Shown piece after piece: positions 181 to 10,731 of a stretch of DNA of 10,929 bases. The number at the start of each line of letters is the position of its first letter. The first letter of the stretch is position 1. The position numbers and the translations under genes are program-made. The notes beneath the pieces are model-generated. The model made no database searches, was not told the DNA's origin, and worked only from the letters and a program-made list of their open reading frames with translations. The stretch is from Parcubacteria group bacterium Gr01-1014_20 (lineage in GTDB: Bacteria > Patescibacteriota > Minisyncoccia > UBA6257 > 2-01-FULL-56-20), in the NCBI GenBank assembly GCA_007376265.1, contig VMFW01000006.1, forward strand, positions 1-10,929, written 5' to 3'.

Positions 181-636
181 CTATTGATTAGGTAGGGGAT
201 TGGTATCTTCCTTAATGATATCCCTCACTTTGATTCTGCCAATCATGTCGAAATGAGTACGTTTGGTCCCTTTGTATTCACCTTCGCCGCAGGGTACGGA
301 ACAGTAAAATGGAAATTCACCGGGTTGGGTAGCTACGAACTCAACCACGATCGTTTCGTTAGCTGGCATCCGTTGGGACACGCCGAGCGCGTCAATCGCG
401 ATACCGTGGTCATAACTATCTTTATTTACGACCGTCATGATGACTTTGTCGCCCCGATTAACCTCGATTTCTTCGGGTTCAAAAAGCCAGGCGTCTTTTA
501 CCGCGGTCACCGTTACTTTTACAACTTCGCCGGTTGTGAGGGGTTTGTCTTCGGACTTTAAGAAAGCTACCCGATAGATAATGCCTCCCCCAATGATTAG
601 AACTCCGACGATGGCTATCCAGAAGTATTTATTCAT
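181..636 (-). CDS. Cupredoxin-fold protein with a CuA-like ligand set, anchored by a single N-terminal transmembrane helix (151 aa)
   Basis: N-terminal hydrophobic helix (FWIAIVGVLIIGGGIIY). The C-terminal region FYCSVPCGEGEYKGTKRTHFDM gives C-x3-C-G ... H-x2-M, the pattern seen in the CuA site of cytochrome oxidase subunit II (C-S-E-L-C-G ... H-x2-M). An upstream His (SYDHGIAID) resembles the first CuA His. Fold and size fit the cupredoxin_1-type family. Only 4 nt separate it from the upstream gene, which indicates operon coupling. Confidence 0.7.
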   Translation of the reverse strand: MNKYFWIAIVGVLIIGGGIIYRVAFLKSEDKPLTTGEVVKVTVTAVKDAWLFEPEEIEVNRGDKVIMTVVNKDSYDHGIAIDALGVSQRMPANETIVVEFVATQPGEFPFYCSVPCGEGEYKGTKRTHFDMIGRIKVRDIIKEDTNPLPNQ

Positions 637-640
637 CCCG

Positions 641-2926
641 TTATTTTTTCATAACTACCGGAGGGACGGTAATATATTTTTTGACAGCCCAGCTCAAAAC
701 GAAGATCAAAATGATGGAGACTATTAAATTTCGCCACCAAGCGGCACCCTCGCCACTTTTCTCAACTGCAATTTGGGAATCTCTAGCCTCAATCCAAAAT
801 TCAGCGACTAAGGAGGCGTCTGCTTCCAGGGTTGTTCCCTCTGGTCTAAATTGCGCGAAGACTTTATAGAAGCCAGCTTTTTTAATTGGTAAGGTGAAAC
901 CGACATGGTCGGCTTCGGTTTCTCCACTTACGGTGGTTGTAGCTTCCTCCGTCTCGCCACCGTGGGCCAAGGCCTCTAGGGCGTTAGCGACTTGCGTGGG
1001 GTTTTTGGTATCCATCAGTGTGTGACTATGGTCGGTGTGACCGTCACCCTCGGGGAGATTACCGTGACCAGCCGCATCTGGGTGAGTATGAATAAATTGA
1101 CTCAGGTCTTCAGAGATGAGGGCGAGGTGCATTTTTTCGCCTAAGTAATTCTCAAGTTTTGCTGAATGACCAAAGGAATCCATAATTTCAAAGTCCACGT
1201 GGTTGTTGCCTAAACCAACTTCCGCATAGTCCAAAGTTACCTGATAGTTATCGACAATTCGGCTCTTTACTATTTCTTTCTCTAGTTTAGACGCGGGCCC
1301 TGCGCCTGCGACCGGAACTATTGGGTGGCCAAAGGCATGGTTTTCTCCTTTATATTTTATTTCTGACCAAATCTTGAAATAGCCCGGTTCTTTAAAAATG
1401 TGTTCGATGGTAAACAAACCACTTTCTTCGACTTTCATGTCTGGATGAATGTGAAAGAAGTTGGTTAGATCATCCCTGACCCCGATTACATGCATTTTTT
1501 TCTCGTGCTGGATTTCTAGGTCCGCTTCGGTAACAAAGTTATTATCCGGTCTGATTCTTACCGAAAATCCCAGTTGAGTTTGGTCTCCACTTTCGGGTTT
1601 GTCGGGCGTTACAACCAGACTAACTACTATTCCCTCAGCAACCTCAGTTTCCTCGTGATAAAAACTTTCGTGAGCTCCGGCGTGACTCTCGTCGCCCATC
1701 ATTTCGCTGTCTTGCATATGCCCATCCTCCATGTGCTCATCCATCATCTCTTCTATGCCGTGAGCTTGGGCCTTTTCTCTGAAGCGGTGAGGCAAAACAT
1801 AACCAAAAACCAGAATTAGAACTAAAGAGACAGAAATAATAGTCCAAAAATGGTAGGGGAGGTTTTTTTTCGCGCTTTCTTTTTCAGGCGAGTCTAGTAG
1901 CGCTTGAGTCGCTTTCCTTTTTCTTAAGTAATACCAAAATAGCGGCGTGATCCATAGGAAAAGTAAAACCCAGGTGCCCCAACTAATCGGCAGACTAAAA
2001 AGTCCGGTCGAGGTTTCCGGTGGCAGGCCGTGCGCGTGGGGAGCGGCTAGATTTAACCTCTCCGAGACAATCCCGAGGAATTTCTCTTCGCCAGTTAGCT
2101 CTTCGAGGAAGGTGTGTTGACCAGAGGCTACCCACCAATCGTGGGAAAAAAGCCCTAGTACTAAAATGAAACCCGCAACCAAAACCATGCCCCACCCAGT
2201 GGCTCGTTGGATTCTATCTTTGTTTTTAACTAGGCCGGCGAGGAGATTGACCCCTAGGATGGCTAGGATGGCTAGGAAGATGAGTGGCAAAACTCGTCCG
2301 ACGGCATGGGTAAAAAAGAGAAGCCAGCCATAAAAAACGTCGCCGGAAACTGCGATGCGAGTCAAAATCACCGGAGTGGCTGGATGCGGACAGCCAACAC
2401 CAATGTTTCCCAGGAAGAGCCCTAAGAGCAGGGCCTTTAGGACATCCTTCTGCTTCTGGATGAACCCCGGAAAGGCTCCGCTGTAAGATGGCATTCGAAG
2501 GCGGATTAGGCCTAGTTCGCCGAGAGCAAAGAGGAAAGCAAAAGTTCCAGCGACAAAATAGAGCCAGTTTTTGACGACTTCTAGGGGCGCACCGAGTGAA
2601 CCAATGGCGACCTTGCCGAGAACTGCCGCAAAGACTCCATAGAGACTTAGTGTGAAGGCGACTCCGATGCCGAAGGCGACGGCGATTGTAAAACCTTTAA
2701 CCGCGCCCTTGCCCATTGAAAGAGGGACAATGACGAAGGCTAGCGGCAGGGTGCAAGGAAGCACGATCATGGATAGTCCCGCCGCAAAACTAAAAAGGTA
2801 CCAGCCGGCACCAACGGGACTAGCTGGACTCCAAAGAAAGAACCAAATTAAACCGAGCGCAATAGCGGCGAAAAGTACAAAAAGAAGGGTAATTAAAATC
2901 TTTCTAAATCCTGAAATTTCTTCCAT
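641..2926 (-). CDS. 761-aa multidomain membrane protein. It comprises a CcdA/DsbD-like transmembrane thiol-disulfide relay domain (aa ~35-260), two extra TM helices, a Met/His-rich segment (aa 388-426), two tandem copies of a ~120-aa His-containing extracytoplasmic domain (aa ~430-545 and ~550-715) and a C-terminal TM anchor.
   Basis: The N-terminal domain has the hallmark CcdA/DsbD TM motifs with Cys in predicted TM1 (LPCTLPL, Cys57) and TM4 (GVGCPHPATP, Cys179). The Met/His-rich stretch HGIEEMMDEHMEDGHMQDSEMMGDESHAGAHESFYHEE (DNA 1649-1765) was verified by back-translation. A duplicated motif, KMHVIGVRDDLTNFFHIHPD (DNA 1439-1498) and KMHLALISEDLSQFIHTHPD (DNA 1076-1135), is followed in both copies by G-x-FT...GFYK. 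The second copy carries a His-rich insert (AAGHGNLPEGDGHTDHSHTLMD). A terminal hydrophobic helix (WWRNLIVSIILIFVLSWAV) is present. No SD is seen. Confidence 0.75.
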   Translation of the reverse strand: MEEISGFRKILITLLFVLFAAIALGLIWFFLWSPASPVGAGWYLFSFAAGLSMIVLPCTLPLAFVIVPLSMGKGAVKGFTIAVAFGIGVAFTLSLYGVFAAVLGKVAIGSLGAPLEVVKNWLYFVAGTFAFLFALGELGLIRLRMPSYSGAFPGFIQKQKDVLKALLLGLFLGNIGVGCPHPATPVILTRIAVSGDVFYGWLLFFTHAVGRVLPLIFLAILAILGVNLLAGLVKNKDRIQRATGWGMVLVAGFILVLGLFSHDWWVASGQHTFLEELTGEEKFLGIVSERLNLAAPHAHGLPPETSTGLFSLPISWGTWVLLFLWITPLFWYYLRKRKATQALLDSPEKESAKKNLPYHFWTIISVSLVLILVFGYVLPHRFREKAQAHGIEEMMDEHMEDGHMQDSEMMGDESHAGAHESFYHEETEVAEGIVVSLVVTPDKPESGDQTQLGFSVRIRPDNNFVTEADLEIQHEKKMHVIGVRDDLTNFFHIHPDMKVEESGLFTIEHIFKEPGYFKIWSEIKYKGENHAFGHPIVPVAGAGPASKLEKEIVKSRIVDNYQVTLDYAEVGLGNNHVDFEIMDSFGHSAKLENYLGEKMHLALISEDLSQFIHTHPDAAGHGNLPEGDGHTDHSHTLMDTKNPTQVANALEALAHGGETEEATTTVSGETEADHVGFTLPIKKAGFYKVFAQFRPEGTTLEADASLVAEFWIEARDSQIAVEKSGEGAAWWRNLIVSIILIFVLSWAVKKYITVPPVVMKK

Positions 2927-2958
2927 GCGTTATCGCTAAACAACGAGTTTCTACTCGC

Positions 2959-3387
2959 TTAAATTGTAGCATTTCGGACTGCTGGTGACTCTGATTTTTT
3001 CCACAGCAAGCCGGTTAGCGCCAGGCTGGCGCCTAAAAGCCCGATGTCTCGGAAGGTAATTAGAAAGTTTGCCTCCTTGAATGGGATGAAGGCGAGAACA
3101 AGAATTCCAAAAAGTTCGAGAGTTGAAAGGAGGGCTACCCAAAAGACGATTTTTGGTTTTAGAAACCAAGCCAAAAAAATCAGGGCCATCAAAATTTCTA
3201 TGAATCCCTGAACTCTTAAATAGGTGTTCACGGCCACAACTTGTTCTATCCATCCCGAAAGCCAGTAGGGGAGAGCCCAATGCCAACTTCCCGGGTGTTT
3301 CATGAGATCAAACCCAGAATATAGATACATTATTCCCAAGCCAAGGCGGAGAGACCATTCGACACCAATTTTATTTAGGAATGACAT
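2959..3387 (-). CDS. DoxX-family integral membrane protein (142 aa, 4 predicted TM helices)
   Basis: N-terminal LRLGLGIMYLYSGFDLMKHP matches the DoxX signature (R-L-x-L-G-x-x-F-x-x-x-G-x-x-K). There are four hydrophobic helices. The stop lies 32 nt upstream of the start of the fusion gene. Confidence 0.7.
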   Translation of the reverse strand: MSFLNKIGVEWSLRLGLGIMYLYSGFDLMKHPGSWHWALPYWLSGWIEQVVAVNTYLRVQGFIEILMALIFLAWFLKPKIVFWVALLSTLELFGILVLAFIPFKEANFLITFRDIGLLGASLALTGLLWKKSESPAVRNATI

Positions 3388-3403
3388 TCGGTTTTTTATT
3401 TGG

Positions 3404-3670
3404 TTACCCAGAAAGTTCTTTCAGTTTGGTAAGTAGTTTGTCTTTACTGAATCCACCCGTAGAAAAAAGTTCGTTATTGATAATGATCCCCGGGGAGGCC
3501 ATAATCATGTATTTTTGGATGAGTTCACGGCCTTCGGGAGTCGTGATATCCGATTTTTTGTATTCTACATTAGGCCATTCCTTTTCAATCGATCGCCAAA
3601 ATTTTTCGAATTCTAAACAGTGCTGACAGCCGGGCGAGGAAAGTTCTTGGAGCAAAACTTGTTGAGGCAT
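3404..3670 (-). CDS. Small cytoplasmic thioredoxin-fold protein with a CxxC active site (CQHC), 88 aa, with no signal peptide
   Basis: SPGCQHCLEFEKFW near the N-terminus is a CxxC redox motif in thioredoxin/glutaredoxin-like context. Size and layout are typical of short Trx_3-like proteins. The gene lies 16 nt upstream of the DoxX gene. Confidence 0.65.
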   Translation of the reverse strand: MPQQVLLQELSSPGCQHCLEFEKFWRSIEKEWPNVEYKKSDITTPEGRELIQKYMIMASPGIIINNELFSTGGFSKDKLLTKLKELSG

Positions 3671-3698: not shown

Positions 3699-4457
3699 CT
3701 ACAGGTAGCCAATTTTTTTCAGCGAAGATTCGTTTTCCCATTCCCAGAGTTTTTTAGCTCCAAGGAAGGCCGCGAAGTCGTTTTGCCAATGAGGGAATTC
3801 CTGAAACTCAATATCACCCCTCATTTCACTCCAAGCGTGTTCGAGGCAGGGGAGACGACCGTTCGGTTTTATTTTTTCGATGCCACCTTTTAATCTTCGA
3901 CGAGCGCCGCAGAATTGGCAGGTTTGGATTTGGTCAATTTTTAGAATCCAGCGGGTTTCGAGGCCAGTGAATTCATCTTTCAGGGCATCCATATAGGCGG
4001 AGGTTTGGAGGTTGTAGTCACGGTAGATGGCCTGAGAGGTTTTGATATCTAAAACACCAAGCTTGCCATCAATGAAGGCCACGGCGTCGACGGTGCCGGC
4101 GTAACGGTGGTTGTGATTGACTACTCTTTTTTCCACAAAATCTTCAGTGACGTGAATGTTTTTTTGGTTTATGAAATCTTGAAACGATTTTATCGCTGGT
4201 TGGATTTTGGGATCGTTTTTTGGCTCTCGTCCCAAAAGGATGGCTTCGACGGCTTCATGAACTGCCGTGCCTTCGCTGGCGGATTTATTTTTTACAGACT
4301 CGCCTTCGGCAAAATTTTTCACACCCGCGTAAAATCGGTAAAGAGCCGGTTTGGCTTTAATATCAACAATTTTGGTGACGCGAGGGTACCAAACGCCACC
4401 CACGTCATAGCCGTTTTTTTCTTTGAAGGTTTCGCTAGTTTGAAAATCGTTATACAT
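3699..4457 (-). CDS. PD-(D/E)xK superfamily nuclease, Cas4/RecB-nuclease-like (252 aa), with a C-terminal Cys/His cluster
   Basis: Motif I is GTAVHEAVE (G-x3-H-E-x2-E). Motif II Asp is in GTVDAVAFIDG. Motif III is LDIKTSQ (D-x-K). The QxxxY motif (QTSAY) is characteristic of the RecB/Cas4 nuclease clade. The C-terminal segment is CQFC...PCLEH. No cas1/cas2 or repeat array lies nearby. Confidence 0.65.
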   Translation of the reverse strand: MYNDFQTSETFKEKNGYDVGGVWYPRVTKIVDIKAKPALYRFYAGVKNFAEGESVKNKSASEGTAVHEAVEAILLGREPKNDPKIQPAIKSFQDFINQKNIHVTEDFVEKRVVNHNHRYAGTVDAVAFIDGKLGVLDIKTSQAIYRDYNLQTSAYMDALKDEFTGLETRWILKIDQIQTCQFCGARRRLKGGIEKIKPNGRLPCLEHAWSEMRGDIEFQEFPHWQNDFAAFLGAKKLWEWENESSLKKIGYL

Positions 4458-4578: not shown

Positions 4579-5181
4579 TTACCCCAGGGATTCTAAGACG
4601 GGGACTGGGTTTACGTCTTTTCCCTTCGGGTTCGGGCCGCAGCCGTTTTCTTGATCCATTCTAAAACCATCTTTCTTGAAGACTGAAAAATGCAAGTGGG
4701 GCGCGGTCGAGAGACCGGTGCGGCCGACCTCTCCAATTTTTTCTTTGAGGTCAAGATCCTGGTTCTCTTTAACACTGATTTTTGATAGATGGGCAAAAAG
4801 AAAGAAAAAGTCGCTTTTGTCGCTCTCGACAATTACAAATTTCCCGTACCCTCGTCTCGGACAGTAAAGTTCTTGATTGCCGACTGCCATCACTTTGCCC
4901 TTGGTTGGTGTTAGGACGGGAGTGCCGAGTTTAGCGGGAATATCGATGCCGTTATGTCGCTTGCCGGCAAGTCTTATTTGAGCAAACTCCGTTCGGCCGT
5001 ACCCTTGAGAAATGTAAACAGTGCTGTTTTTTCCGGGTAGAAGCGGAGAATTTTTCAGTTGGGCCGACGAGTCTGTTTTTGAGTATTCACCGCGAACGAT
5101 CAAGCCAAGGGTTTCAAGGGTAGAACTAATCGCAACAAGAGAAAAGAATGTAAATATAAGGAGTAAAAAAAACTTACCCAT
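4579..5181 (-). CDS. M23 (LytM-type) peptidoglycan metalloendopeptidase with an N-terminal signal/anchor
   Basis: HNGIDI (H-x-x-x-D) and PHLHF (H-x-H) are the M23 zinc motifs. The ATG at 5181 directly precedes the signal peptide MGKFFLLLIF and overlaps the murC stop (ATGGGTAAG), so it is preferred over the GTG at 5220 given in the track. Confidence 0.8.
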   Translation of the reverse strand: MGKFFLLLIFTFFSLVAISSTLETLGLIVRGEYSKTDSSAQLKNSPLLPGKNSTVYISQGYGRTEFAQIRLAGKRHNGIDIPAKLGTPVLTPTKGKVMAVGNQELYCPRRGYGKFVIVESDKSDFFFLFAHLSKISVKENQDLDLKEKIGEVGRTGLSTAPHLHFSVFKKDGFRMDQENGCGPNPKGKDVNPVPVLESLG

Positions 5182-6556
5182 GGGAAGGAAGGAGGGAGGG
5201 CGTGTAATCGACAATGTCACCGGCGCCCATCATGATGATACATGAATCATGAAGTTTAAAACCTTGATTATCGAGGATTTTGGGTAGGAATTTATTGATC
5301 CGGTTAGGGGAGGGGAGATAGTAAGCCTTTTTTCGTGGATATTTTTTGCGGATGGCTTCGACCAGCTTTTTTGAGGTAAAAGTTGAGGTGACTTTGTCTC
5401 GGCCAGCAACTTCGTAGACGGGAATAATGATGAGAAAATCAGCTAGTGAAAATGATTCGGTAAATTCTTTGAAGAGAGATTTAAGGCGTTTAGCTTGGTG
5501 GGGTTGGTAGACACAGATAAGTTTTTTTTCAGGGAATTTTTCTCGAAAGGCTTGGAGGGAAGCTTTTATTTCGGTTGGGTGGTGAGCATAGTCATCGTAA
5601 ACGTGAATCTTGAATCTTGAATCATGAATAAGGAATCCTCTGAACTCCATCCGGCGCCAGGCGCCGGTATAAGAACCGAGCGCTTTTAGGGCAATCGATT
5701 TTTTAATTTTTAAAATCTTAGCCATGACTAAAACTGCACTCGCATTCGAGATATTGTGATCACCGGGAATTCGGAGAATTTTTTTTAACTCTGCTTTTTT
5801 GGCCGAATACCAGACAACTTCCAGACTCCGTTTTTTTGCGATTTTTGAAATAGGGGATTTAAGGGAGGAAAGATTTTTGTCGTCTTGGTTGAGTATAAGC
5901 GAGCCGCCAGGTTTAGTTCTGCTCATAAATTTCAGAAATGTTTTCTTGACGTCCGAGAGGTCTCTATAGAAATCCAAATGCTCTTTGTCGATCGTGGTAA
6001 CGATGATGACATCGCTTTCATAATTTAAGAAAGAAGCTTTCCATTCATCAGCTTCAATAACGAGCCACTTGGAACGCCCGTATCGAAAATTCTTATTGCC
6101 AAATCCTTTAAGGTTAGTGCCGATGATAACATTAGGATCGAGCTTGGCTTTGATGAGCGTGAGCGCGGCGAGCGCGGTCGTGGTGGACTTACCGTGACTC
6201 CCCGCGATAGAGATAGTCTTGTAGACTCTGGTTAGGCAGCCCAGGGTTTCGGGGTAGGAAAGGGGTTTTAGGCCCCGCTTTTTTGCTTCAACCATCTCTG
6301 GATTGTCGGGTCTAATAGCGGGGCTATAAATGACCATATTTAGGTCTCTTTTTGGCAAGTTAGCTTTTTTATGGCCAATTTTGACTCTAGCGCCCTCCGT
6401 TCTAAGGTTCGTAATGTTAGCGCTACTTGAGATGTCAGAGCCGCTCACCACCCAATTTTGAGCTAAAAACCAGCGAGCTAGAGAGCTGATTCCTATGCCA
6501 CCGATACCTATAAAATGGGCTACCGGTTTTGACTGGGGGAGGGTTTTTCTAGGCAT
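5174..6556 (-). CDS. murC: UDP-N-acetylmuramate--L-alanine ligase
   Basis: The N-terminal HFIGIGGIGISS motif is the MurC signature. The central P-loop is GSHGKSTTTA, and DYAHHP is present. The ATG at 6556 (MPRK...) is preferred over the TTG at 6562 given in the track. Confidence 0.85.
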   Translation of the reverse strand: MPRKTLPQSKPVAHFIGIGGIGISSLARWFLAQNWVVSGSDISSSANITNLRTEGARVKIGHKKANLPKRDLNMVIYSPAIRPDNPEMVEAKKRGLKPLSYPETLGCLTRVYKTISIAGSHGKSTTTALAALTLIKAKLDPNVIIGTNLKGFGNKNFRYGRSKWLVIEADEWKASFLNYESDVIIVTTIDKEHLDFYRDLSDVKKTFLKFMSRTKPGGSLILNQDDKNLSSLKSPISKIAKKRSLEVVWYSAKKAELKKILRIPGDHNISNASAVLVMAKILKIKKSIALKALGSYTGAWRRMEFRGFLIHDSRFKIHVYDDYAHHPTEIKASLQAFREKFPEKKLICVYQPHQAKRLKSLFKEFTESFSLADFLIIIPVYEVAGRDKVTSTFTSKKLVEAIRKKYPRKKAYYLPSPNRINKFLPKILDNQGFKLHDSCIIMMGAGDIVDYTPSLLPSHG

Positions 6557-6587
6557 TTGCAACGTATGTTATCTGTCGCACAATATA

Positions 6588-6743: not shown

Positions 6744-7145
6744 CTATTTCCTGACTGAGATTATCGAAAAAACCTTTTTGAGCGCATTGGCTATGGCGTC
6801 CACTAGGTATACAAAAAATCCGCCAATTTTGCCAAAGGTTTCGCCGATTGTGAGTCCGGTTATTTTTTCGAACCAGCCGTCAATAAAAGTAAAAGCTGGT
6901 CGAACTAGATCAAAAAGCCACCAAAATATGATTTTAATGATTTCGTAAATTTTGACCACGATATTTTTCACAAATTCTATGGCGCGATAAAATGAGTTTC
7001 GAACGGGTTCGAAAACTTCTCGCAAAGCTTGGTTAGGAGTTTTAATGCCGTAGTTCCATTCTTCATCGGCTGAATGAACTTGAGTCGAGGCGAACGTGAT
7101 AATTAATCCAATTCCAAAAAGTAGGGCGAGGTTTTTTTTGCGCAT
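6744..7145 (-). CDS. Small secreted or membrane-associated hypothetical protein (133 aa) embedded in the cell-wall gene block
   Basis: Signal peptide with an AXA-like site (TQVHS-AD). A strongly hydrophobic internal segment is present (IIKIIFWWLFDLV). No recognisable catalytic motif is seen. The gene lies 11 nt downstream of the MurE-like gene. Confidence 0.45.
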   Translation of the reverse strand: MRKKNLALLFGIGLIITFASTQVHSADEEWNYGIKTPNQALREVFEPVRNSFYRAIEFVKNIVVKIYEIIKIIFWWLFDLVRPAFTFIDGWFEKITGLTIGETFGKIGGFFVYLVDAIANALKKVFSIISVRK

Positions 7146-7156
7146 ATCTTATTGTC

Positions 7157-8470
7157 TTATATCAAACCGAAAGTAGTTTTTTCTAATTCTTGTCTGACCA
7201 CTTCTCGGTCGTCCCACGGAATCGTTTTGTTTGTGATTATCATTGATTGTTCAGCTCCTTTCCCCGTAATGATAACAATATCGTCCTCAAGAGCCAGTGA
7301 CAAGGCTTTCTGAATTCCCTCTCTCCTGTCTTCGATCGGGAAAAGATTTTTATTTCTTACTTTACCATTTTTTTCTGCCGCTTGGGTAATTGACTCGATA
7401 ATTTCTTGGGGATCGTCGTCGTAGGGGTCGACATTTGAAACTACTATAAGATCGGCGAGTTCGGCGGCCACTTGACCCATTCGAGGCCTTTTCTTTTTAT
7501 CCCGCCCGCCACCTTCGGCGCCGATAAGAATTATGATTCGGTTTTTTTTGATTTTATTAGCGAGCTCAAGAATTGCCCTCAGACTGACTTCATCGTGGGC
7601 GTAGTCAACAAAAACGGAATACTTTTTACTGGTCTTCACTAGTTCCATTCGGCCTGGCACACTCGTCACTTTTCCTATCCCCTCTTTTATAGACTTATAA
7701 TCTAGGCCTAGAGCGGAGGTGGTAGCGATGGCGGCCAGAGCGTTCGTAACGTTATGAGCCCCCAAGAGTGCTAGTTCATAGTTGCGATTGCTCACTGAAA
7801 AGGTAACATTTCTCGGAGTGACTTGTATTTTTTCGGCCACAAAATTGGCCTTAGAATTTATGCCGTAAGTAATTTTTTGATCAGCTTCAGATTCAAGGAG
7901 TTTTTCGCTTTCTTCTGTGTCCATGTTGATAACAATCGTTTTCGGAATTTTTTTGCCGTCAATAGTTTTTCGTTGGTTTTTTCCGAGCGCAGAAAATATT
8001 TTTCGGTTCATCATTTTTAGTCGTTCATAGTCCCAGCCATGAATTTCTAGATATTCCGGGTAGAGCGTAACTAGAACCGCGACATCGTAACGAATAGCGT
8101 GGTGTCGCCATTGCTCAATGCCTTCTGATGGGGTTTCGATTACAGCGTACTTGCATCCTGCTCGCACCATTGCTCTCAACATTTTCTGCATCGCGAAACG
8201 ACCGGGCATGGTCATGTGATAAGGGTTTAGAATTTCCTTTTCACCTAGGTGAATCGTAGCGGTGCTAGTTAAGCCGGTTTGGTGGTTGGCGGCTCGAAGG
8301 CATGACCAGATAAATTTGGCCGTGGTTGTTTTGCCTCGGGTGCCGACTACGCCGATTATCACCATTTTTTTTGAAGGGAGCCCATAGATTGCCGCGCCAA
8401 GGTAGGGCAGGAGCCAATGGTACCAACCTATCAGGAATTTCGGAATTAATTTTTTGATAATTTTTTTCAT
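7157..8470 (-). CDS. Mur ligase family protein with MurE-type central and C-terminal domains but lacking the N-terminal UDP-MurNAc-binding domain. It begins instead with a ~35-aa hydrophobic/aromatic segment.
   Basis: The P-loop GVVGTRGKTTT is already at aa 41-51. VFVDYAHDEVSL is present. GAEGGGRDKKKRPRMG...SNVDPYDDDP parallels MurE (GCGGDRDKGKRPLMG...TDDNPRTEEP). The C-terminal ITGKGAEQ parallels AGKGHE. The ATGA start/stop overlap with the FemAB gene was seen directly. Confidence 0.7.
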   Translation of the reverse strand: MKKIIKKLIPKFLIGWYHWLLPYLGAAIYGLPSKKMVIIGVVGTRGKTTTAKFIWSCLRAANHQTGLTSTATIHLGEKEILNPYHMTMPGRFAMQKMLRAMVRAGCKYAVIETPSEGIEQWRHHAIRYDVAVLVTLYPEYLEIHGWDYERLKMMNRKIFSALGKNQRKTIDGKKIPKTIVINMDTEESEKLLESEADQKITYGINSKANFVAEKIQVTPRNVTFSVSNRNYELALLGAHNVTNALAAIATTSALGLDYKSIKEGIGKVTSVPGRMELVKTSKKYSVFVDYAHDEVSLRAILELANKIKKNRIIILIGAEGGGRDKKKRPRMGQVAAELADLIVVSNVDPYDDDPQEIIESITQAAEKNGKVRNKNLFPIEDRREGIQKALSLALEDDIVIITGKGAEQSMIITNKTIPWDDREVVRQELEKTTFGLI

Positions 8471-9432
8471 TTAAACTTTTTAATAAGCTGGAATAGGAAG
8501 TGCCATTTTTTATTTAAAGCGAGGTCCCAGGTGCCAATATATTTTACAGTTTGACTCCCAAAGCTTTTTTTGAAAGACGTTATGCCTGACCATTTTTTAT
8601 TATTTTCATCAATACCCCACAGGTCGAAAATGTTAAGGCCGTTGGCTTTAGCATCGAGAATGGCTTCCCATAAAAGCAGAGATGGGGCATTGAATTTACC
8701 ATAACCCTCCAGAGAAGAAGCCAAGCCATAGGTAGAGCTTTCGGCAAAGTGAATTATTAGGGCAGCACTGACTGTTTTGTCCCCTACCTGACCCAGGAAA
8801 ATTTTTGATCGACAGTTGCCGGTCAGCGCGAAAACCTCGCGGTAATACTTTTCTGGGTAGGTTCGGAGCTCGTGGCGTTTGTTGGTGGCTTCGAATATTT
8901 CCCAAAACTCATTGAATTTTTCCAATTTCTCTTTAGTAGATTCAATCTTTATGATTTTTACTCCTCTTTTTTGGGCGGTTTTGATGGCGTAGCGTGTATC
9001 TTTATCTAATTTTTCGTATAGTTCACTCTCTTTGATTTTCAGGTTCAAAACTGCGGTAGTTTCTGGCTGAACCTGTTTGCTCTTTTTAAAACCTAGAACC
9101 TGAAGGATTTTTTTGTCCTCGGTGTTTTCTTCAACCGCCGGTTCAACCCTTAAGAAGATGACCTTGTGCCTCTCTTTTAGTTTTTGAATTTCCGAGATTA
9201 GAATTTCTAGTTTTTTGAGGGACCCGCTTGGGCCGCGAGGAACGTAAAAATAATTTAAGCCAAACGGTAATTTGTATTTGATGAGTAGGGCGGATAAGTC
9301 AGCTACCGAGACGTGGAACACCTCTCGGCCAAGATTTCTCTGAAGCTCTCCCCATTCCCACGATTGGAGATAGGATCCATTCTGGGCGAAGACAAGTTTG
9401 TCCCACTCCTTTTGATCCTCAACTAATTTCAT
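8467..9432 (-). CDS. FemAB-family peptidoglycan aminoacyltransferase (FemX/MurM-like)
   Basis: 321 aa. The overall FemAB-like composition and length fit. The FemAB assignment is my recognition of the family, not a motif match I can point to. The gene is flanked by and translationally coupled to the Mur ligase (ATGA) and the M23 gene (TAAATG). Confidence 0.65.
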   Translation of the reverse strand: MKLVEDQKEWDKLVFAQNGSYLQSWEWGELQRNLGREVFHVSVADLSALLIKYKLPFGLNYFYVPRGPSGSLKKLEILISEIQKLKERHKVIFLRVEPAVEENTEDKKILQVLGFKKSKQVQPETTAVLNLKIKESELYEKLDKDTRYAIKTAQKRGVKIIKIESTKEKLEKFNEFWEIFEATNKRHELRTYPEKYYREVFALTGNCRSKIFLGQVGDKTVSAALIIHFAESSTYGLASSLEGYGKFNAPSLLLWEAILDAKANGLNIFDLWGIDENNKKWSGITSFKKSFGSQTVKYIGTWDLALNKKWHFLFQLIKKFK

Positions 9433-10731
9433 TTAGAGGTATTGCTCAGGATCTAGGTCACCACCGACTGGCATCGGACCGCAGACTCTTGAGGCCTTGG
9501 TTCCTTCCGGAAAACCAGCTCGAGCTGGAGTCAGCGTGTTATTGGCAAAAACAGTAAAGTGAAGGTGTGGGCCGGTAGCCCAACCACTTTTTCCCATATA
9601 ACCGATTACCTCGCCCTCCTTGACCTCCTGGCCGATTGAAACGATGAATCGTGAGAGATGAGCGTAAAGAGTGGTTAAGCCGTTTTTGTGTTTGACGACG
9701 ATGAGTTTGCCGTAAGCCCCGCCGCGGCAACCTCTGTACTGATCTTGATCGGCTACGTTGATTACTATGCCATCTCCGGCCGCTAAGATGGGCGTTCCGA
9801 TCGGTCCGCCGAGGTCAAGTCCGTTGTGGTGCTGGCCGCGGTAGTTTTTTTTGGCAAATTCAGTTACACCGTATCTTTGGGTTATTTTTACAGTTTTAAC
9901 CGGCCAGAGAAAAACGCCTGGTCTGGGGGTGGGCAGAAGATTAGGATCGATCTGTTTGCGCAGTTCGGTTTCAACTTTTTCAATTTCAGCCGCTATTTCT
10001 TCTTGCTTTTTCTCGAGTTCTTTCAGTTGCTGATTGTAAATGCTTTCTTTGTTTTTAGTGTTCGCGAGGAGGGTTTCCTTAGTATCTTCTTGGTCCTCGA
10101 TAATAATTCTTTTATTTTCCGAATTTCTCTTTCGCTCGGATATTTCAACGAGTTTGGCATCTATATCACCGACTTTTCTTACCTTAGCACCTCTCAGTTC
10201 ATCTAGGCCGCCAATTTCGATGCCGAGTTGTGAGCTTGTGTCAGTTAGAGATTGAGCTTCTAGGAGGTTTTCGGCTAAGCTATTTCCTTTGAGTAAAACT
10301 ATTAGGAGATTGGTGTGGCTGTTTCTCTGAAGGCGTCTTAGGAGTTGAACGATGGCGTCGCGTTTGTCATCGACTGAGAGTTCAATGTCCTGGATGTCGT
10401 ATTTCAGCGAGTCTATTTCTAGGGAAAGCTTCTCGGTCGCGACCTTGTCGGCGCGGATGCTCAGATTGAGTTGTGAAATATTATTTTTAATAGTCGTTAA
10501 CTCTTTTTGGAGCCCAACCTTTTCCGTTTTAGTGTCCTGAAGTTTTTCTTGGGTTTCGGCGAGCTCTCGGTTTAGCTTTTCGAGTTCAAGGCTTTGGGAG
10601 CGGATACGGCTTTCTAGTTCCTCTCGGCTAAGATTTACCTCAGCTGAATCTACCGCCAAGGTCAGATTGGAGGTTACAACCGAAGAAAGAACAACGGAGA
10701 ATAAAATTATTTTTTTAGCTAGATTGATCAT
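9433..10731 (-). CDS. EnvC-like murein hydrolase/activator. It has an N-terminal signal peptide, a long coiled-coil region and a C-terminal M23 peptidase domain.
   Basis: A signal peptide is followed by ~250 aa of heptad-like, E/K/L/Q-rich sequence. The C-terminal M23 motifs are HHNGLDLG and GPHLHFTV. Confidence 0.8.
   Translation of the reverse strand: MINLAKKIILFSVVLSSVVTSNLTLAVDSAEVNLSREELESRIRSQSLELEKLNRELAETQEKLQDTKTEKVGLQKELTTIKNNISQLNLSIRADKVATEKLSLEIDSLKYDIQDIELSVDDKRDAIVQLLRRLQRNSHTNLLIVLLKGNSLAENLLEAQSLTDTSSQLGIEIGGLDELRGAKVRKVGDIDAKLVEISERKRNSENKRIIIEDQEDTKETLLANTKNKESIYNQQLKELEKKQEEIAAEIEKVETELRKQIDPNLLPTPRPGVFLWPVKTVKITQRYGVTEFAKKNYRGQHHNGLDLGGPIGTPILAAGDGIVINVADQDQYRGCRGGAYGKLIVVKHKNGLTTLYAHLSRFIVSIGQEVKEGEVIGYMGKSGWATGPHLHFTVFANNTLTPARAGFPEGTKASRVCGPMPVGGDLDPEQYL

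What the first reader, a model, noticed from the sequence alone, without database searches (positions are those of the whole stretch)
7157..9432. MurE-type Mur ligase lacking the UDP-binding N-domain and carrying a hydrophobic N-terminus, translationally coupled to a FemAB transferase
The ligase has clear MurE-like central and C-terminal motifs (GTRGKTTT, DYAH, GGGRDKKKRPRMG, GKGAEQ). However, its P-loop is already at residue ~41, whereas canonical MurE has a ~100-aa N-terminal domain that positions the UDP-MurNAc substrate. Here the N-terminus is instead a hydrophobic/aromatic stretch (FLIGWYHWLLPYLGAAIYGL). In MurT, absence of the UDP-binding domain goes with action on lipid-linked precursors. 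Together with the ATGA-overlapping FemAB-family gene, this suggests a membrane-associated ligase/transferase pair that modifies a lipid-linked stem peptide, or an unusual peptidoglycan chemistry. It may not be the housekeeping MurE step. No other murE is visible in the window to settle this.
Basis: partly seen in the sequence, partly recalled or inferred. Interest (0 to 1): 0.55.

Follow-up and report, generated by a model that had tools for sequence, protein, structure and literature searches.

The report
CPR-type MurE lacking its UDP-binding domain
This is most likely the ordinary cell-wall ligase MurE of a Parcubacteria (candidate phyla radiation) bacterium, in a form shared across that radiation that has replaced the roughly 90-residue nucleotide-binding domain with a 17-residue basic helix, so it is a lineage-wide enzyme variant and not a special lipid-linked pathway.

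Summary
The 437-aa ligase (7157-8470, minus strand) has only the Mur ligase middle and C-terminal domains. Its P-loop is at residues 43-50. A stop codon sits directly before its ATG, and it overlaps the FemAB gene by ATGA. It is clearly MurE-like by sequence and by fold, and not MurT-like.

The truncation is not peculiar to this gene. At least 140 protein clusters (50% identity) and 323 GTDB species hits, nearly all labelled as Patescibacteria, share the short N-terminus. That N-terminus carries conserved basic residues plus P10, Y17 and H18.

The gene lies in cell-wall and division clusters: ftsW-murG-…-femX-murE-murC here, ftsI-murE in Peregrinibacteria, and beside mraY-ftsW-murG elsewhere. 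Only residues 1-17 are new, because residues 18-31 match the first helix of the canonical central domain. The segment is amphipathic and does not look transmembrane.

The DNPR (diaminopimelate) motif is replaced by (E/V)DPY, and FemX-type genes sit directly upstream in 58% of loci. Both point to a branched, non-DAP peptidoglycan.

My best reading is that this is the lineage's housekeeping MurE. I could not test whether it is the only MurE in the genome. This window's subclade also lacks two canonical metal-site residues.

The parts
7157..8470 (-). Short MurE-type Mur ligase, 437 aa, with middle and C-terminal domains only
   Evidence: AF2 model has pLDDT 88.6. The best Foldseek hits are all MurE-type chains (top hit plant MurE-like PAP11, 8r6s_Q); among bacterial enzymes S. 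aureus MurE 4c13 has TMq 0.85 and rmsd 2.4 A.
8420..8470 (-). Residues 1-17 (MKKIIKKLIPKFLIGWY). This is the only truly new N-terminal segment: a basic amphipathic helix (2-9), then P10, then the start of the long helix, ending at Y17, which with H18 (in the next part) forms the conserved Y17-H18 pair.
   Evidence: Canonical MurE alignments start at query residue 18-24. Across 138 diverse family members K/R at position 6 is 89%, P10 89%, Y17 89% and H18 94%. muH is 0.82 for residues 2-9. Predicted helices span 2-8 and 11-28.
8378..8419 (-). Residues 18-31 (HWLLPYLGAAIYGL). This helix is homologous to the first helix of the canonical MurE central domain (E. coli about 90-103, ...LSALAGRFYHEPS).
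   Evidence: phmmer to 1e8c maps query 18 to chain 90, and to 2wtz maps query 20 to chain 130. MAFFT alignment with E. coli MurE agrees. pLDDT is 95 for residues 21-30.
8321..8344 (-). P-loop GTRGKTTT (residues 43-50)
   Evidence: G43, G46 and K47 are invariant in the family.
8051..8053 (-). Y140, at the position of E. coli MurE H210 (DHLDYH motif). It is H in 95% of the wider short-MurE family.
8006..8008 (-). N155, at the position of E. coli MurE K224 (the carbamylated lysine). It is K in 94% of the wider family. K152 (8015-8017) is conserved instead.
7421..7432 (-). VDPY (residues 347-350), at the position of the DNPR (mDAP) or DNPA (L-Lys) specificity motif
   Evidence: Alignments to T. 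maritima DDPR and E. coli DNPR. In the family the positions are E/D/V, D 97%, P 94% and Y 86%. Motif roles are described in PMC3829189.
8467..9432 (-). FemAB/FemX-family aminoacyl-tRNA-dependent transferase, 321 aa, without the coiled-coil insert
   Evidence: PF02388 scores 139 bits. PDB hits are S. aureus FemX 6snr and W. viridescens FemX 1ne9. The alignment skips the 6snr coiled-coil region 234-305.
8467..8470 (-). ATGA stop/start overlap between femAB and the ligase
   Evidence: The same 4-bp overlap occurs in about 17 related loci.
9433..10731 (-). M23 peptidase with an N-terminal coiled-coil region. It abuts femAB with no gap and is the first gene of the M23-femAB-murE block.
   Evidence: The M23-FemAB-sMurE order is conserved in 18 or more loci.
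6744..7145 (-). 133-aa protein with a signal-peptide-like N-terminus and no family hit, immediately downstream of the ligase
   Evidence: A comparable small hydrophobic ORF (family f6, or f83 in the window's own organism) follows sMurE directly in 13 loci.
5174..6562 (-). Full-length MurC with its N-terminal domain, in the same gene string
   Evidence: TIGR01082 scores 368 bits against a cut-off of 335. PF01225 covers residues 16-113.

Best explanation
This is the lineage-typical, housekeeping MurE of Patescibacteria (CPR), here from a Parcubacteria genome.

Inferred role: it still performs the third stem-peptide step, ATP-dependent addition of an amino acid to the D-Glu gamma-carboxylate of UDP-MurNAc-L-Ala-D-Glu. 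It does so with a minimised architecture. Domain 1, which holds the uridine in canonical MurE, has been replaced by about 17 residues: a cationic amphipathic helix, P10 and a Y17-H18 pair that extend the first helix of the central domain.

I infer that this short element caps the nucleotide end of the substrate cleft, holds the enzyme at the membrane or next to partner enzymes, or does both.

The amino acid added is probably not meso-DAP, because the arginine of DNPR is a conserved tyrosine. It is most likely a diamino acid such as L-Lys or L-Orn. Its side-chain amine would then be branched by the translationally coupled FemX-type transferase using an aminoacyl-tRNA.

Shown: architecture, family-wide conservation, gene contexts and motif replacements. 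Inferred: the substrate, the role of the N-terminal element and the identity of the amino acid.
For: 1) Identity. TIGR01085 murE scores 323 bits, above its 257 cut-off. The top PDB sequence hits are all MurE. The AF2 model matches S. aureus MurE with TMq 0.85, E. coli MurE with 0.82 and MurT with only 0.46.

2) Lineage-wide form. The top 120 homologues are 432-467 aa with M and C domains only. About 140 of the best 150 50%-identity cluster representatives are short and align from residue 1-10. The first canonical-type hit aligns query 33-427 to its residues 101-481. The segment before P32 has a median length of 34 aa and a range of 21-50 in 137 members. There are 323 relatives in GTDB species genomes. 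The best 80 come from 80 different assemblies labelled Paceibacterota, Falkow-, Berkel-, Doudna-, Kaiser-, Taylor-, Vogel-, Lipton- and Azambacteria, CPR2 and Peregrinibacteria.

3) Housekeeping context. In this genome and relatives the order is Amidohydrolase-ftsW-murG-gltX-M23-femAB-murE-x-murC. Two Peregrinibacteria/Peribacteria loci have ftsI (PBP_dimer plus Transpeptidase) directly followed by murE, the canonical dcw position. L050 has mraY-ftsW-murG, then murE, then murD.

4) No other MurE-type ligase was found in any of 85 loci, 1.2 Mb in total. No domain-1-like sequence was found in any frame.

5) The N-terminal element is under selection: P10 89%, Y17 89%, H18 94%, basic at positions 6 and 7.

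6) Catalytic core. The P-loop, E112, S115, R122, H144, D289-Y-A-H, G-G-R323-D324 and G403-K-G-x-E407 are conserved.

7) Chemistry. DNPR is replaced by (E/V/D)DPY. FemAB lies directly upstream in 46 of 79 loci with enough upstream sequence. Three loci that lack FemAB have instead a racemase, ATP-grasp and asparagine-synthase module next to murE.

8) Other Mur ligases in these genomes (MurC, MurD) keep their N domains, so the loss is specific to MurE.
Against: Whether this is the only MurE in the genome was not tested, because no whole CPR genome could be scanned with these tools.

Canonical MurE uses domain 1 for the uridine-binding site (PMC3829189). How a domain-1-less enzyme would bind UDP-MurNAc-dipeptide is unexplained.

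In this protein and its near clade (about 87 of 340 sequences) two residues that are canonical for MurD/E/F catalysis are replaced. The E. coli H210 equivalent is Y140, and the carbamylated K224 equivalent is N155 (H, N or D in the clade). Catalysis may therefore be altered in this particular subclade.

The equivalog-level MurE models are all below their cut-offs; the best is NF001126 at 336 against 373.

One locus (L036) carries a second, divergent and frameshifted short copy, so paralogy exists in the family.

MurF of these genomes was not found, so I could not check that the next enzyme expects a UDP-linked substrate.
Confidence: 0.68

Rival explanations
1. Membrane-associated ligase acting on a lipid-linked (undecaprenyl-PP-MurNAc-peptide) or otherwise non-UDP precursor, by analogy with MurT. 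It would work as a pair with the FemX-type transferase at the membrane.
For: Domain 1, the uridine-binding part, is missing. MurT also lacks it and works on lipid II (PMC6113224). Residues 2-9 form a cationic amphipathic helix with muH 0.82, and residues 12-30 are aromatic-rich, with a Wimley-White interfacial sum of -8.7 kcal/mol. Some Fem transferases act on lipid II; the best PDB hit of the FemAB protein is S. aureus lipid II:glycine glycyltransferase.
Against: The protein is far closer to MurE than to MurT in sequence (323 against 47.6 bits) and in fold (TM 0.85 against 0.46). It has no zinc ribbon, no GatD partner and no MurT-type C-terminal domain. Residues 18-31 are part of the globular central domain. 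The segment is not TM-like in the family, with a KD19 median of 1.0 and only 7 of 137 members at 1.6 or above. A lipid-linked MurE step would also need MraY and MurF to accept non-canonical substrates, yet MraY here is an ordinary TIGR00445 member. FemAB is absent from 42% of loci.
Confidence: 0.1
2. A MurE-derived paralogue with a different job, such as adding a second amino acid, recycling peptides or making another gamma-linked polymer. The true full-length MurE would be encoded elsewhere in the genome.
For: Other Mur-ligase relatives without domain 1 (FolC, PgsB, cyanophycin synthetase, MurT) act on non-UDP substrates (own knowledge). The specificity motif is non-canonical. H210 and K224 equivalents are replaced in this clade. 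A second divergent copy exists in L036. The source annotation calls the protein 'Uncharacterized protein'.
Against: No second MurE-type gene was seen in 85 loci. The gene occupies the murE slot after ftsI in two genomes and lies within ftsW-murG-…-murC strings in many others. The family is very widespread, and no assembly appears twice among the best 80 GTDB hits. The whole MurE-specific core is conserved and scores above the TIGR01085 cut-off.
Confidence: 0.12
3. In this particular subclade the protein is catalytically impaired or repurposed, for example as a scaffold or regulator. The argument is that the second-metal-site residues (H to Y140, carbamyl-Lys to N155) are lost.
For: Y140 and N155 replace residues that are 95% and 94% conserved in the wider short family and conserved in E. 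coli MurE.
Against: The clade is strongly conserved at 50-79% identity with all other motifs intact. K152, one helix turn away, is nearly invariant in it. It keeps the same ftsW-murG-femAB-murE-murC context as H/K-type orthologues such as L046 and L076. Position 155 is often D or H, which could bind metal directly. MurC works without a carbamylated lysine (own knowledge).
Confidence: 0.07

Closest known systems
Canonical MurE (UDP-MurNAc-L-Ala-D-Glu:diamino acid ligase; E. coli 1E8C, S. aureus 4C12/4C13, T. maritima 4BUB, M. tuberculosis 2WTZ)
   Same: The central ATP-binding domain and the C-terminal domain match in sequence (129-166 bits to the PDB chains) and in fold (TMq 0.80-0.85). The P-loop, the Mg-binding Glu, DYAH, GGxRD and GKGxE are present. 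The gene lies in dcw-type neighbourhoods.
   Different: There is no domain 1, which is 88 aa in E. coli and 98 aa in S. aureus. About 17 residues carrying a basic helix, P10 and Y17-H18 take its place. DNPR/DNPA is replaced by (E/V)DPY. In this subclade the H210 and K224 equivalents are Y and N.
MurT of the GatD/MurT lipid II amidotransferase (S. aureus 6H5E)
   Same: It is a Mur-ligase relative that lacks the N-terminal domain.
   Different: Similarity is very weak: 47.6 bits against a cut-off of 800, and TM 0.46. The window protein has no Cys4 zinc ribbon and no GatD partner. MurT has an open, linear domain arrangement and amidates D-Glu of lipid II; it does not add an amino acid.
Domain-1-less Mur-ligase relatives: FolC/FPGS, cyanophycin synthetase M domain, PgsB/CapB
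   Same: All have a two-domain Mur-ligase core without a UDP-binding domain. PgsB also has a hydrophobic N-terminus (own knowledge).
   Different: Scores are much lower: cyanophycin synthetase 113 bits, FolC 57 bits, and PgsB not among the listed hits. None sits in dcw clusters, and the substrates are unrelated to MurNAc-peptides.
FemX of Weissella viridescens and S. aureus (partner gene)
   Same: The partner belongs to the FemAB family (PF02388, 139 bits). At 321 aa and without a coiled-coil insert it resembles FemX_Wv.
   Different: It scores only 57.8 bits against the FemX equivalog cut-off of 500. A conserved murE-coupled arrangement is not, to my knowledge, described for characterised Fem enzymes.

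Membership tests
MurE (UDP-N-acetylmuramyl-tripeptide synthetase, TIGR01085) | Score above the curated family cut-off | tested here: met
   323.4 bits against a cut-off of 257.3. The equivalog-level models are all below cut-off (best NF001126, 335.9 against 373).
MurE | Central Mur_ligase_M domain with P-loop, and Mur_ligase_C domain | tested here: met
   PF08245 at 41-250 (106 bits) and PF02875 at 273-405 (88.5 bits). GTRGKTTT at 43-50.
MurE | N-terminal domain 1 that forms the uridine-binding site (PF01225 type; E. coli 1-88, S. aureus 1-98) | tested here: not met
   No PF01225 hit. Profile and PDB alignments start at residue 18-24, which corresponds to E. coli residue 90. An in-frame stop lies directly before the ATG.
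MurE | Amino-acid specificity motif DNPR (mDAP) or D(D/N)P(N/A) (L-Lys) | tested here: not met
   VDPY at 347-350. The family consensus is (E/D/V)-D-P-Y with Y at 86%. Motif definitions are from PMC3829189.
MurE | Carbamylated lysine (E. coli K224) and the His of the DHLDxH motif (E. coli H210) | tested here: not met
   N155 and Y140 in the window protein. These residues are K and H in 243 of about 340 family members.
MurE | Location in a division/cell-wall (dcw) gene neighbourhood | tested here: met
   ftsW-murG-…-murE-…-murC. ftsI-murE in L048 and L064. mraY-ftsW-murG next to murE in L050.
MurE | Catalyses addition of the third residue to UDP-MurNAc-L-Ala-D-Glu, and is the only such enzyme in the genome | not testable with these tools
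Only 10-kb flanks were available.
MurT (lipid II isoglutaminyl synthase subunit) | Score above the equivalog cut-off | tested here: not met
   NF052464 scores 47.6 bits against a cut-off of 800. Foldseek TM is 0.46 to 6h5e_D.
MurT | Cys4 zinc ribbon in the middle domain, present in S. aureus MurT and a subset of homologues | tested here: not met
   Only two cysteines, C57 and C106. The feature is described in PMC6113224.
MurT | Adjacent GatD glutamine amidotransferase partner | tested here: not met
   No GATase gene in the window or in L001.
FemAB family (partner gene 8467-9432) | PF02388 above the gathering score | tested here: met
   139.3 bits against 24. The FemX equivalog NF047883 scores 57.8 against 500, so that level is not met.

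The most novel reading that the evidence does not exclude
Across the CPR, MurE has dispensed with the nucleotide-binding domain because the third stem-peptide step is organised differently. The conserved 17-residue cationic amphipathic helix with its Y-H pair would tether the enzyme to the membrane or to MraY, MurG or FemX. In that arrangement the stem peptide would be completed in a membrane-bound assembly, possibly on a lipid-linked or otherwise non-UDP carrier. It would incorporate a non-DAP residue selected by the novel (E/V)DPY motif.
Probability: 0.12. Interest if true: 0.75.

Novelty: new variant of a known kind. Interest (0 to 1): 0.45.

Why it matters
MurE is an essential and well-studied antibiotic target. 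Textbook descriptions give all MurC-F ligases three domains, with the N-terminal one holding the UDP-sugar.

Here a very large bacterial radiation appears to run this step with a two-domain enzyme. That raises a concrete and testable question: how is UDP-MurNAc-dipeptide recognised without domain 1?

Two further points follow. The replaced specificity motif, together with the linkage to FemX-type or ATP-grasp/AsnB-type branching enzymes, gives the first sequence-based prediction that many CPR bacteria build a branched, non-DAP (Gram-positive-like) peptidoglycan. No muropeptide data for these lineages turned up in the searches made here.

There is also a practical consequence. The source genome's deposited annotation calls this protein 'uncharacterized' (NCBI annotations of other homologues do name it MurE), so pathway reconstructions built on such annotations may wrongly score murE as missing.

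Tried and rejected
1) Longer start codon. Rejected, because a stop codon directly precedes the ATG and the FemAB gene is complete to the end of its profile.

2) Transmembrane anchor. Rejected as the general reading. The KD 19-residue maximum is 1.05 here and has a median of 1.0 in 137 members. There are 1-3 charged residues in the helix. Residues 18-31 belong to the globular domain with pLDDT 95.

3) MurT, PgsB, FolC or cyanophycin synthetase membership. Rejected on scores and fold.

4) Domain 1 supplied by a separate ORF. The downstream 133-aa protein has a signal-peptide-like N-terminus and no family hit. tblastn and phmmer with E. coli and P0233 domain 1 against 1.26 Mb of loci found nothing below E = 0.05. 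This is a weak negative because domain 1 is poorly conserved.

5) Fusion partners as functional clues. The longer relatives are fused to DUF192 or archease, which is uninformative.

6) Looking for MurF or a canonical MurE next to mraY in CPR genomes. A MraY search and two contexts showed mraY-ftsW-murG and murD but no murF or murE, so the MurF N-domain test could not be made.

7) Literature. Four full-text searches and six papers gave no description of an N-truncated CPR MurE. Subscription-only papers are not covered.

9) The sole-MurE test could not be done.
Full report
**What is in the window.** All genes in the region lie on the minus strand and are tightly packed. The order is M23 peptidase (10731-9433), FemAB-family transferase (9432-8467), the ligase (8470-7157), a 133-aa protein (7145-6744), MurC (6562-5174) and a second M23 peptidase. 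The ligase has Pfam Mur_ligase_M at 41-250 and Mur_ligase_C at 273-405, and no N-terminal Mur ligase domain. The neighbouring MurC does have that domain, at residues 16-113. The NCBIfam murE model TIGR01085 scores 323 bits (cut-off 257), but the match starts only at profile position 73 and protein residue 24. The femAB stop and the ligase start share ATGA at 8467-8470. In the ligase frame a stop codon directly precedes the ATG, so a longer N-terminus is impossible.

**How much of the N-terminus is really new.** PDB sequence alignments map query residue 18 to E. coli MurE residue 90, residue 20 to M. tuberculosis residue 130, and residue 24 to S. aureus residue 91. A MAFFT alignment with E. coli MurE, fetched, puts YHWLLPYLGAAIYGLPSKK opposite LNERLSALAGRFYHEPSDN. 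Domain 1 is residues 1-88 in E. coli (my recollection of the 1E8C structure paper) and 1-98 in S. aureus, where it contains the uridine-binding site (PMC3829189). So about 72 residues are missing, and residues 18-31 of the 'hydrophobic stretch' are simply the first helix of the canonical central domain. Only residues 1-17 (MKKIIKKLIPKFLIGWY) are new.

**Structure of the new segment.** An AlphaFold2 model (pLDDT 88.6) predicts helices at 2-8 and 11-28, with confidence rising from 68 to 95 along the segment. Residues 2-9 are strongly amphipathic and cationic (muH 0.82, mean hydrophobicity -0.10). The best 19-residue Kyte-Doolittle mean is 1.05, below the usual 1.6 criterion for a transmembrane helix. 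This is not a classical transmembrane anchor. A peripheral, in-plane membrane helix remains possible.

**It is MurE-like, not MurT-like.** Foldseek places the model on MurE structures: S. aureus 4c13 with TMq 0.85 and rmsd 2.4 A, and E. coli 1e8c with 0.82. MurT (6h5e) reaches only 0.46. The MurT equivalog model scores 47.6 bits against a cut-off of 800. The protein has two cysteines and therefore no Cys4 ribbon. No GatD-like gene is nearby. The features of MurT are taken from PMC6113224.

**The truncation is a family trait of the candidate phyla radiation.** The window is the end of a 124-kb contig of 'Parcubacteria group bacterium Gr01-1014_20'.
- The top 120 homologues (50-100% identity) are all 432-467 aa and have only the M and C domains.
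- In an exhaustive search of 1.84 billion cluster representatives, about 140 of the best 150 hits (down to about 35% identity) are of the same length class and align from residue 1-10 of both proteins. The first canonical-type hit, a MurE-MurF fusion, aligns query 33-427 to its residues 101-481.
- In 137 diverse members the segment up to the conserved P32 has a median length of 34 residues (range 21-50). Its maximal KD19 has a median of 1.0, and only 7 members reach 1.6.
- The new segment is conserved: basic residues at 2, 6 and 7, P10 89%, Y17 89% and H18 94%.
- A scan of GTDB species genomes found 323 relatives. The best 80 come from 80 different assemblies labelled Paceibacterota, Falkow-, Berkel-, Doudna-, Kaiser-, Taylor-, Vogel-, Lipton- and Azambacteria, CPR2, Peregrinibacteria and similar names.

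**Gene context points to the housekeeping step.**
- Upstream of the window, the same contig carries ftsW and murG. The string Amidohydrolase-ftsW-murG-gltX-M23-(femAB)-murE-small protein-murC-PD-(D/E)XK protein recurs in many relatives.
- In two Peregrinibacteria/Peribacteria genomes the short murE directly follows an ftsI-type PBP (PBP_dimer plus Transpeptidase). This is the canonical murE position, as seen in E. coli.
- In L050 it lies between mraY-ftsW-murG and murD.
- In 85 loci (1.2 Mb) there is one strong short MurE per locus and no full-length MurE. The other Mur ligases found, MurC and MurD, keep their N domains.
- No domain-1-like sequence was detectable in any frame. This is a weak negative.

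The remaining clause, that it is the sole MurE, could not be tested because no whole carrier genome can be read with these tools.

**Link to branching enzymes and probable chemistry.** A FemAB gene lies directly upstream on the same strand in 46 of 79 loci that have at least 1 kb of upstream sequence. It does so in otherwise unrelated surroundings, and with the same 4-bp overlap in about 17 loci. The FemAB protein is FemX-like: it has no coiled-coil insert, and its best PDB hits are S. aureus FemX and W. viridescens FemX.

Three loci of the ftsW-murG type lack FemAB. Next to murE they carry an alanine-racemase-family gene, an ATP-grasp gene (PRK12767-like, 42 bits) and an asparagine synthase. 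From my own knowledge this resembles the racemase, D-Asp ligase and AsnH set that builds D-iso-Asn bridges in lactic acid bacteria.

The specificity motif DNPR (mDAP) or DNPA (L-Lys) is replaced by VDPY here. In the family it is (E/D/V)-D-P-Y, with Y at 86%. Loss of the arginine argues against meso-DAP. The branching enzymes argue for a residue with a free side-chain amine. I infer a Lys- or Orn-type, branched peptidoglycan, but the motif itself matches no characterised class.

**A complication specific to this window.** In the wider short family the equivalents of E. coli H210 and of the carbamylated K224 are conserved (H140 95%, K155 94%). In the window protein they are Y140 and N155. About 87 of about 340 sequences share Y140 with H, N or D at position 155, and K152, one helix turn earlier, is nearly invariant in them. 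This clade keeps the same dcw-type context as H/K-type orthologues and is well conserved. I therefore read this as a remodelled metal site and not as loss of function, but it lowers my confidence that catalysis is fully canonical.

**Mechanism proposed.** The following is shown: a two-domain MurE core with an intact ATP site and a closed MurE-like fold, a conserved 17-residue N-terminal element, dcw context, and coupling to FemX. The following is inferred. The enzyme still acylates an amino acid with the D-Glu gamma-carboxylate of UDP-MurNAc-L-Ala-D-Glu. The basic helix and Y17-H18 substitute for domain 1 at the uridine-diphosphate end of the cleft, or hold the enzyme at the membrane or next to partners, or both. 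The product's third residue is then branched by FemX using an aminoacyl-tRNA. My confidence is about 0.68.

**Rivals.** A lipid-linked or non-UDP substrate: 0.10. A paralogue with another function and a canonical MurE elsewhere: 0.12. An impaired or repurposed protein in this subclade: 0.07.

**Novelty and score.** Four full-text searches and six papers gave no description of a domain-1-less MurE in CPR bacteria. Databases simply label these proteins MurE, Mur ligase family protein or, in the source genome, 'Uncharacterized protein'. I rate it a new variant of a known kind. It is an ordinary pathway step carried out by an unusual, lineage-wide architecture. It offers a testable structural question and a prediction about CPR wall chemistry. 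Interest is 0.45.

Noticed in passing
L046:5737-9939, L076 and L015 (same arrangement): Where FemAB is missing from the ftsW-murG-gltX-M23-…-murE string, three genes sit next to murE: an alanine-racemase-family gene, an ATP-grasp gene (PRK12767-like, no Pfam hit) and an asparagine synthase on the opposite strand. This may be an alternative D-amino-acid cross-bridge module, like the racemase, D-Asp ligase and AsnH set of lactic acid bacteria.
   Followed up: partly
L001:6269-7756 (just upstream of the window), also L004, L005 and about 15 other loci: A canonical glutamyl-tRNA synthetase gene (gltX) is conserved inside the cell-wall cluster between murG and the M23-femAB-murE block. Whether this relates to the aminoacyl-tRNA donor of the Fem transferase is unknown.
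   Followed up: no
window 6744-7145 (-): A 133-aa protein with a signal-peptide-like N-terminus and a hydrophobic C-terminal part, with no Pfam or NCBIfam hit. A comparable small hydrophobic ORF directly follows the short murE in 13 loci.
   Followed up: partly
L036:11452-12905: A second short-MurE copy lies directly downstream of the first. It is only 35-40% identical to it and is split over two frames, so it is a frameshift or a pseudogene. Divergent paralogues of the short form therefore exist in at least one genome.
   Followed up: partly
window 9433-10731 (-) and 4579-5220 (-): Two M23 (LytM/lysostaphin-type) peptidases bracket the femAB-murE-murC block, the first with a long coiled-coil N-terminal part. 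M23 next to a FemAB-family gene recalls lysostaphin/Lif-type pairs, but here the arrangement is a conserved core cluster.
   Followed up: no
window 3699-4457 (-): A 252-aa protein with weak PD-(D/E)XK/Cas4-like similarity. It is conserved downstream of murC in 11 loci.
   Followed up: no
window 181-3670 (-): A redox/copper-looking block: a cupredoxin-like 151-aa protein, a 761-aa protein with a DsbD-type transmembrane domain and His-rich stretches, a 142-aa membrane protein and a thioredoxin-like 88-aa protein. A related set (HMA, DsbD_2, cupredoxin) lies directly upstream of the short murE in L003.
   Followed up: no
P0134 (613 aa), P0250 (589 aa): Some short-MurE representatives carry C-terminal DUF192 or archease domains. 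These are probably fused gene calls or chance fusions, and they gave no functional clue.
   Followed up: partly
P0001 and P0081 names: The source MAG annotations call this protein 'Uncharacterized protein'. Pathway reconstructions based on them could score murE as absent in these Parcubacteria.
   Followed up: no
L059:6609-8066 (-): A 485-aa MurC/Mpl-like ligase with its N domain lies near the short murE in one genome. It may be a peptide-recycling ligase.
   Followed up: no
L001:1917-3425 and 10 other loci: An amidohydrolase-family gene of about 500 aa is conserved immediately upstream of ftsW in the Paceibacteria-type cluster. Its role is unknown.
   Followed up: no
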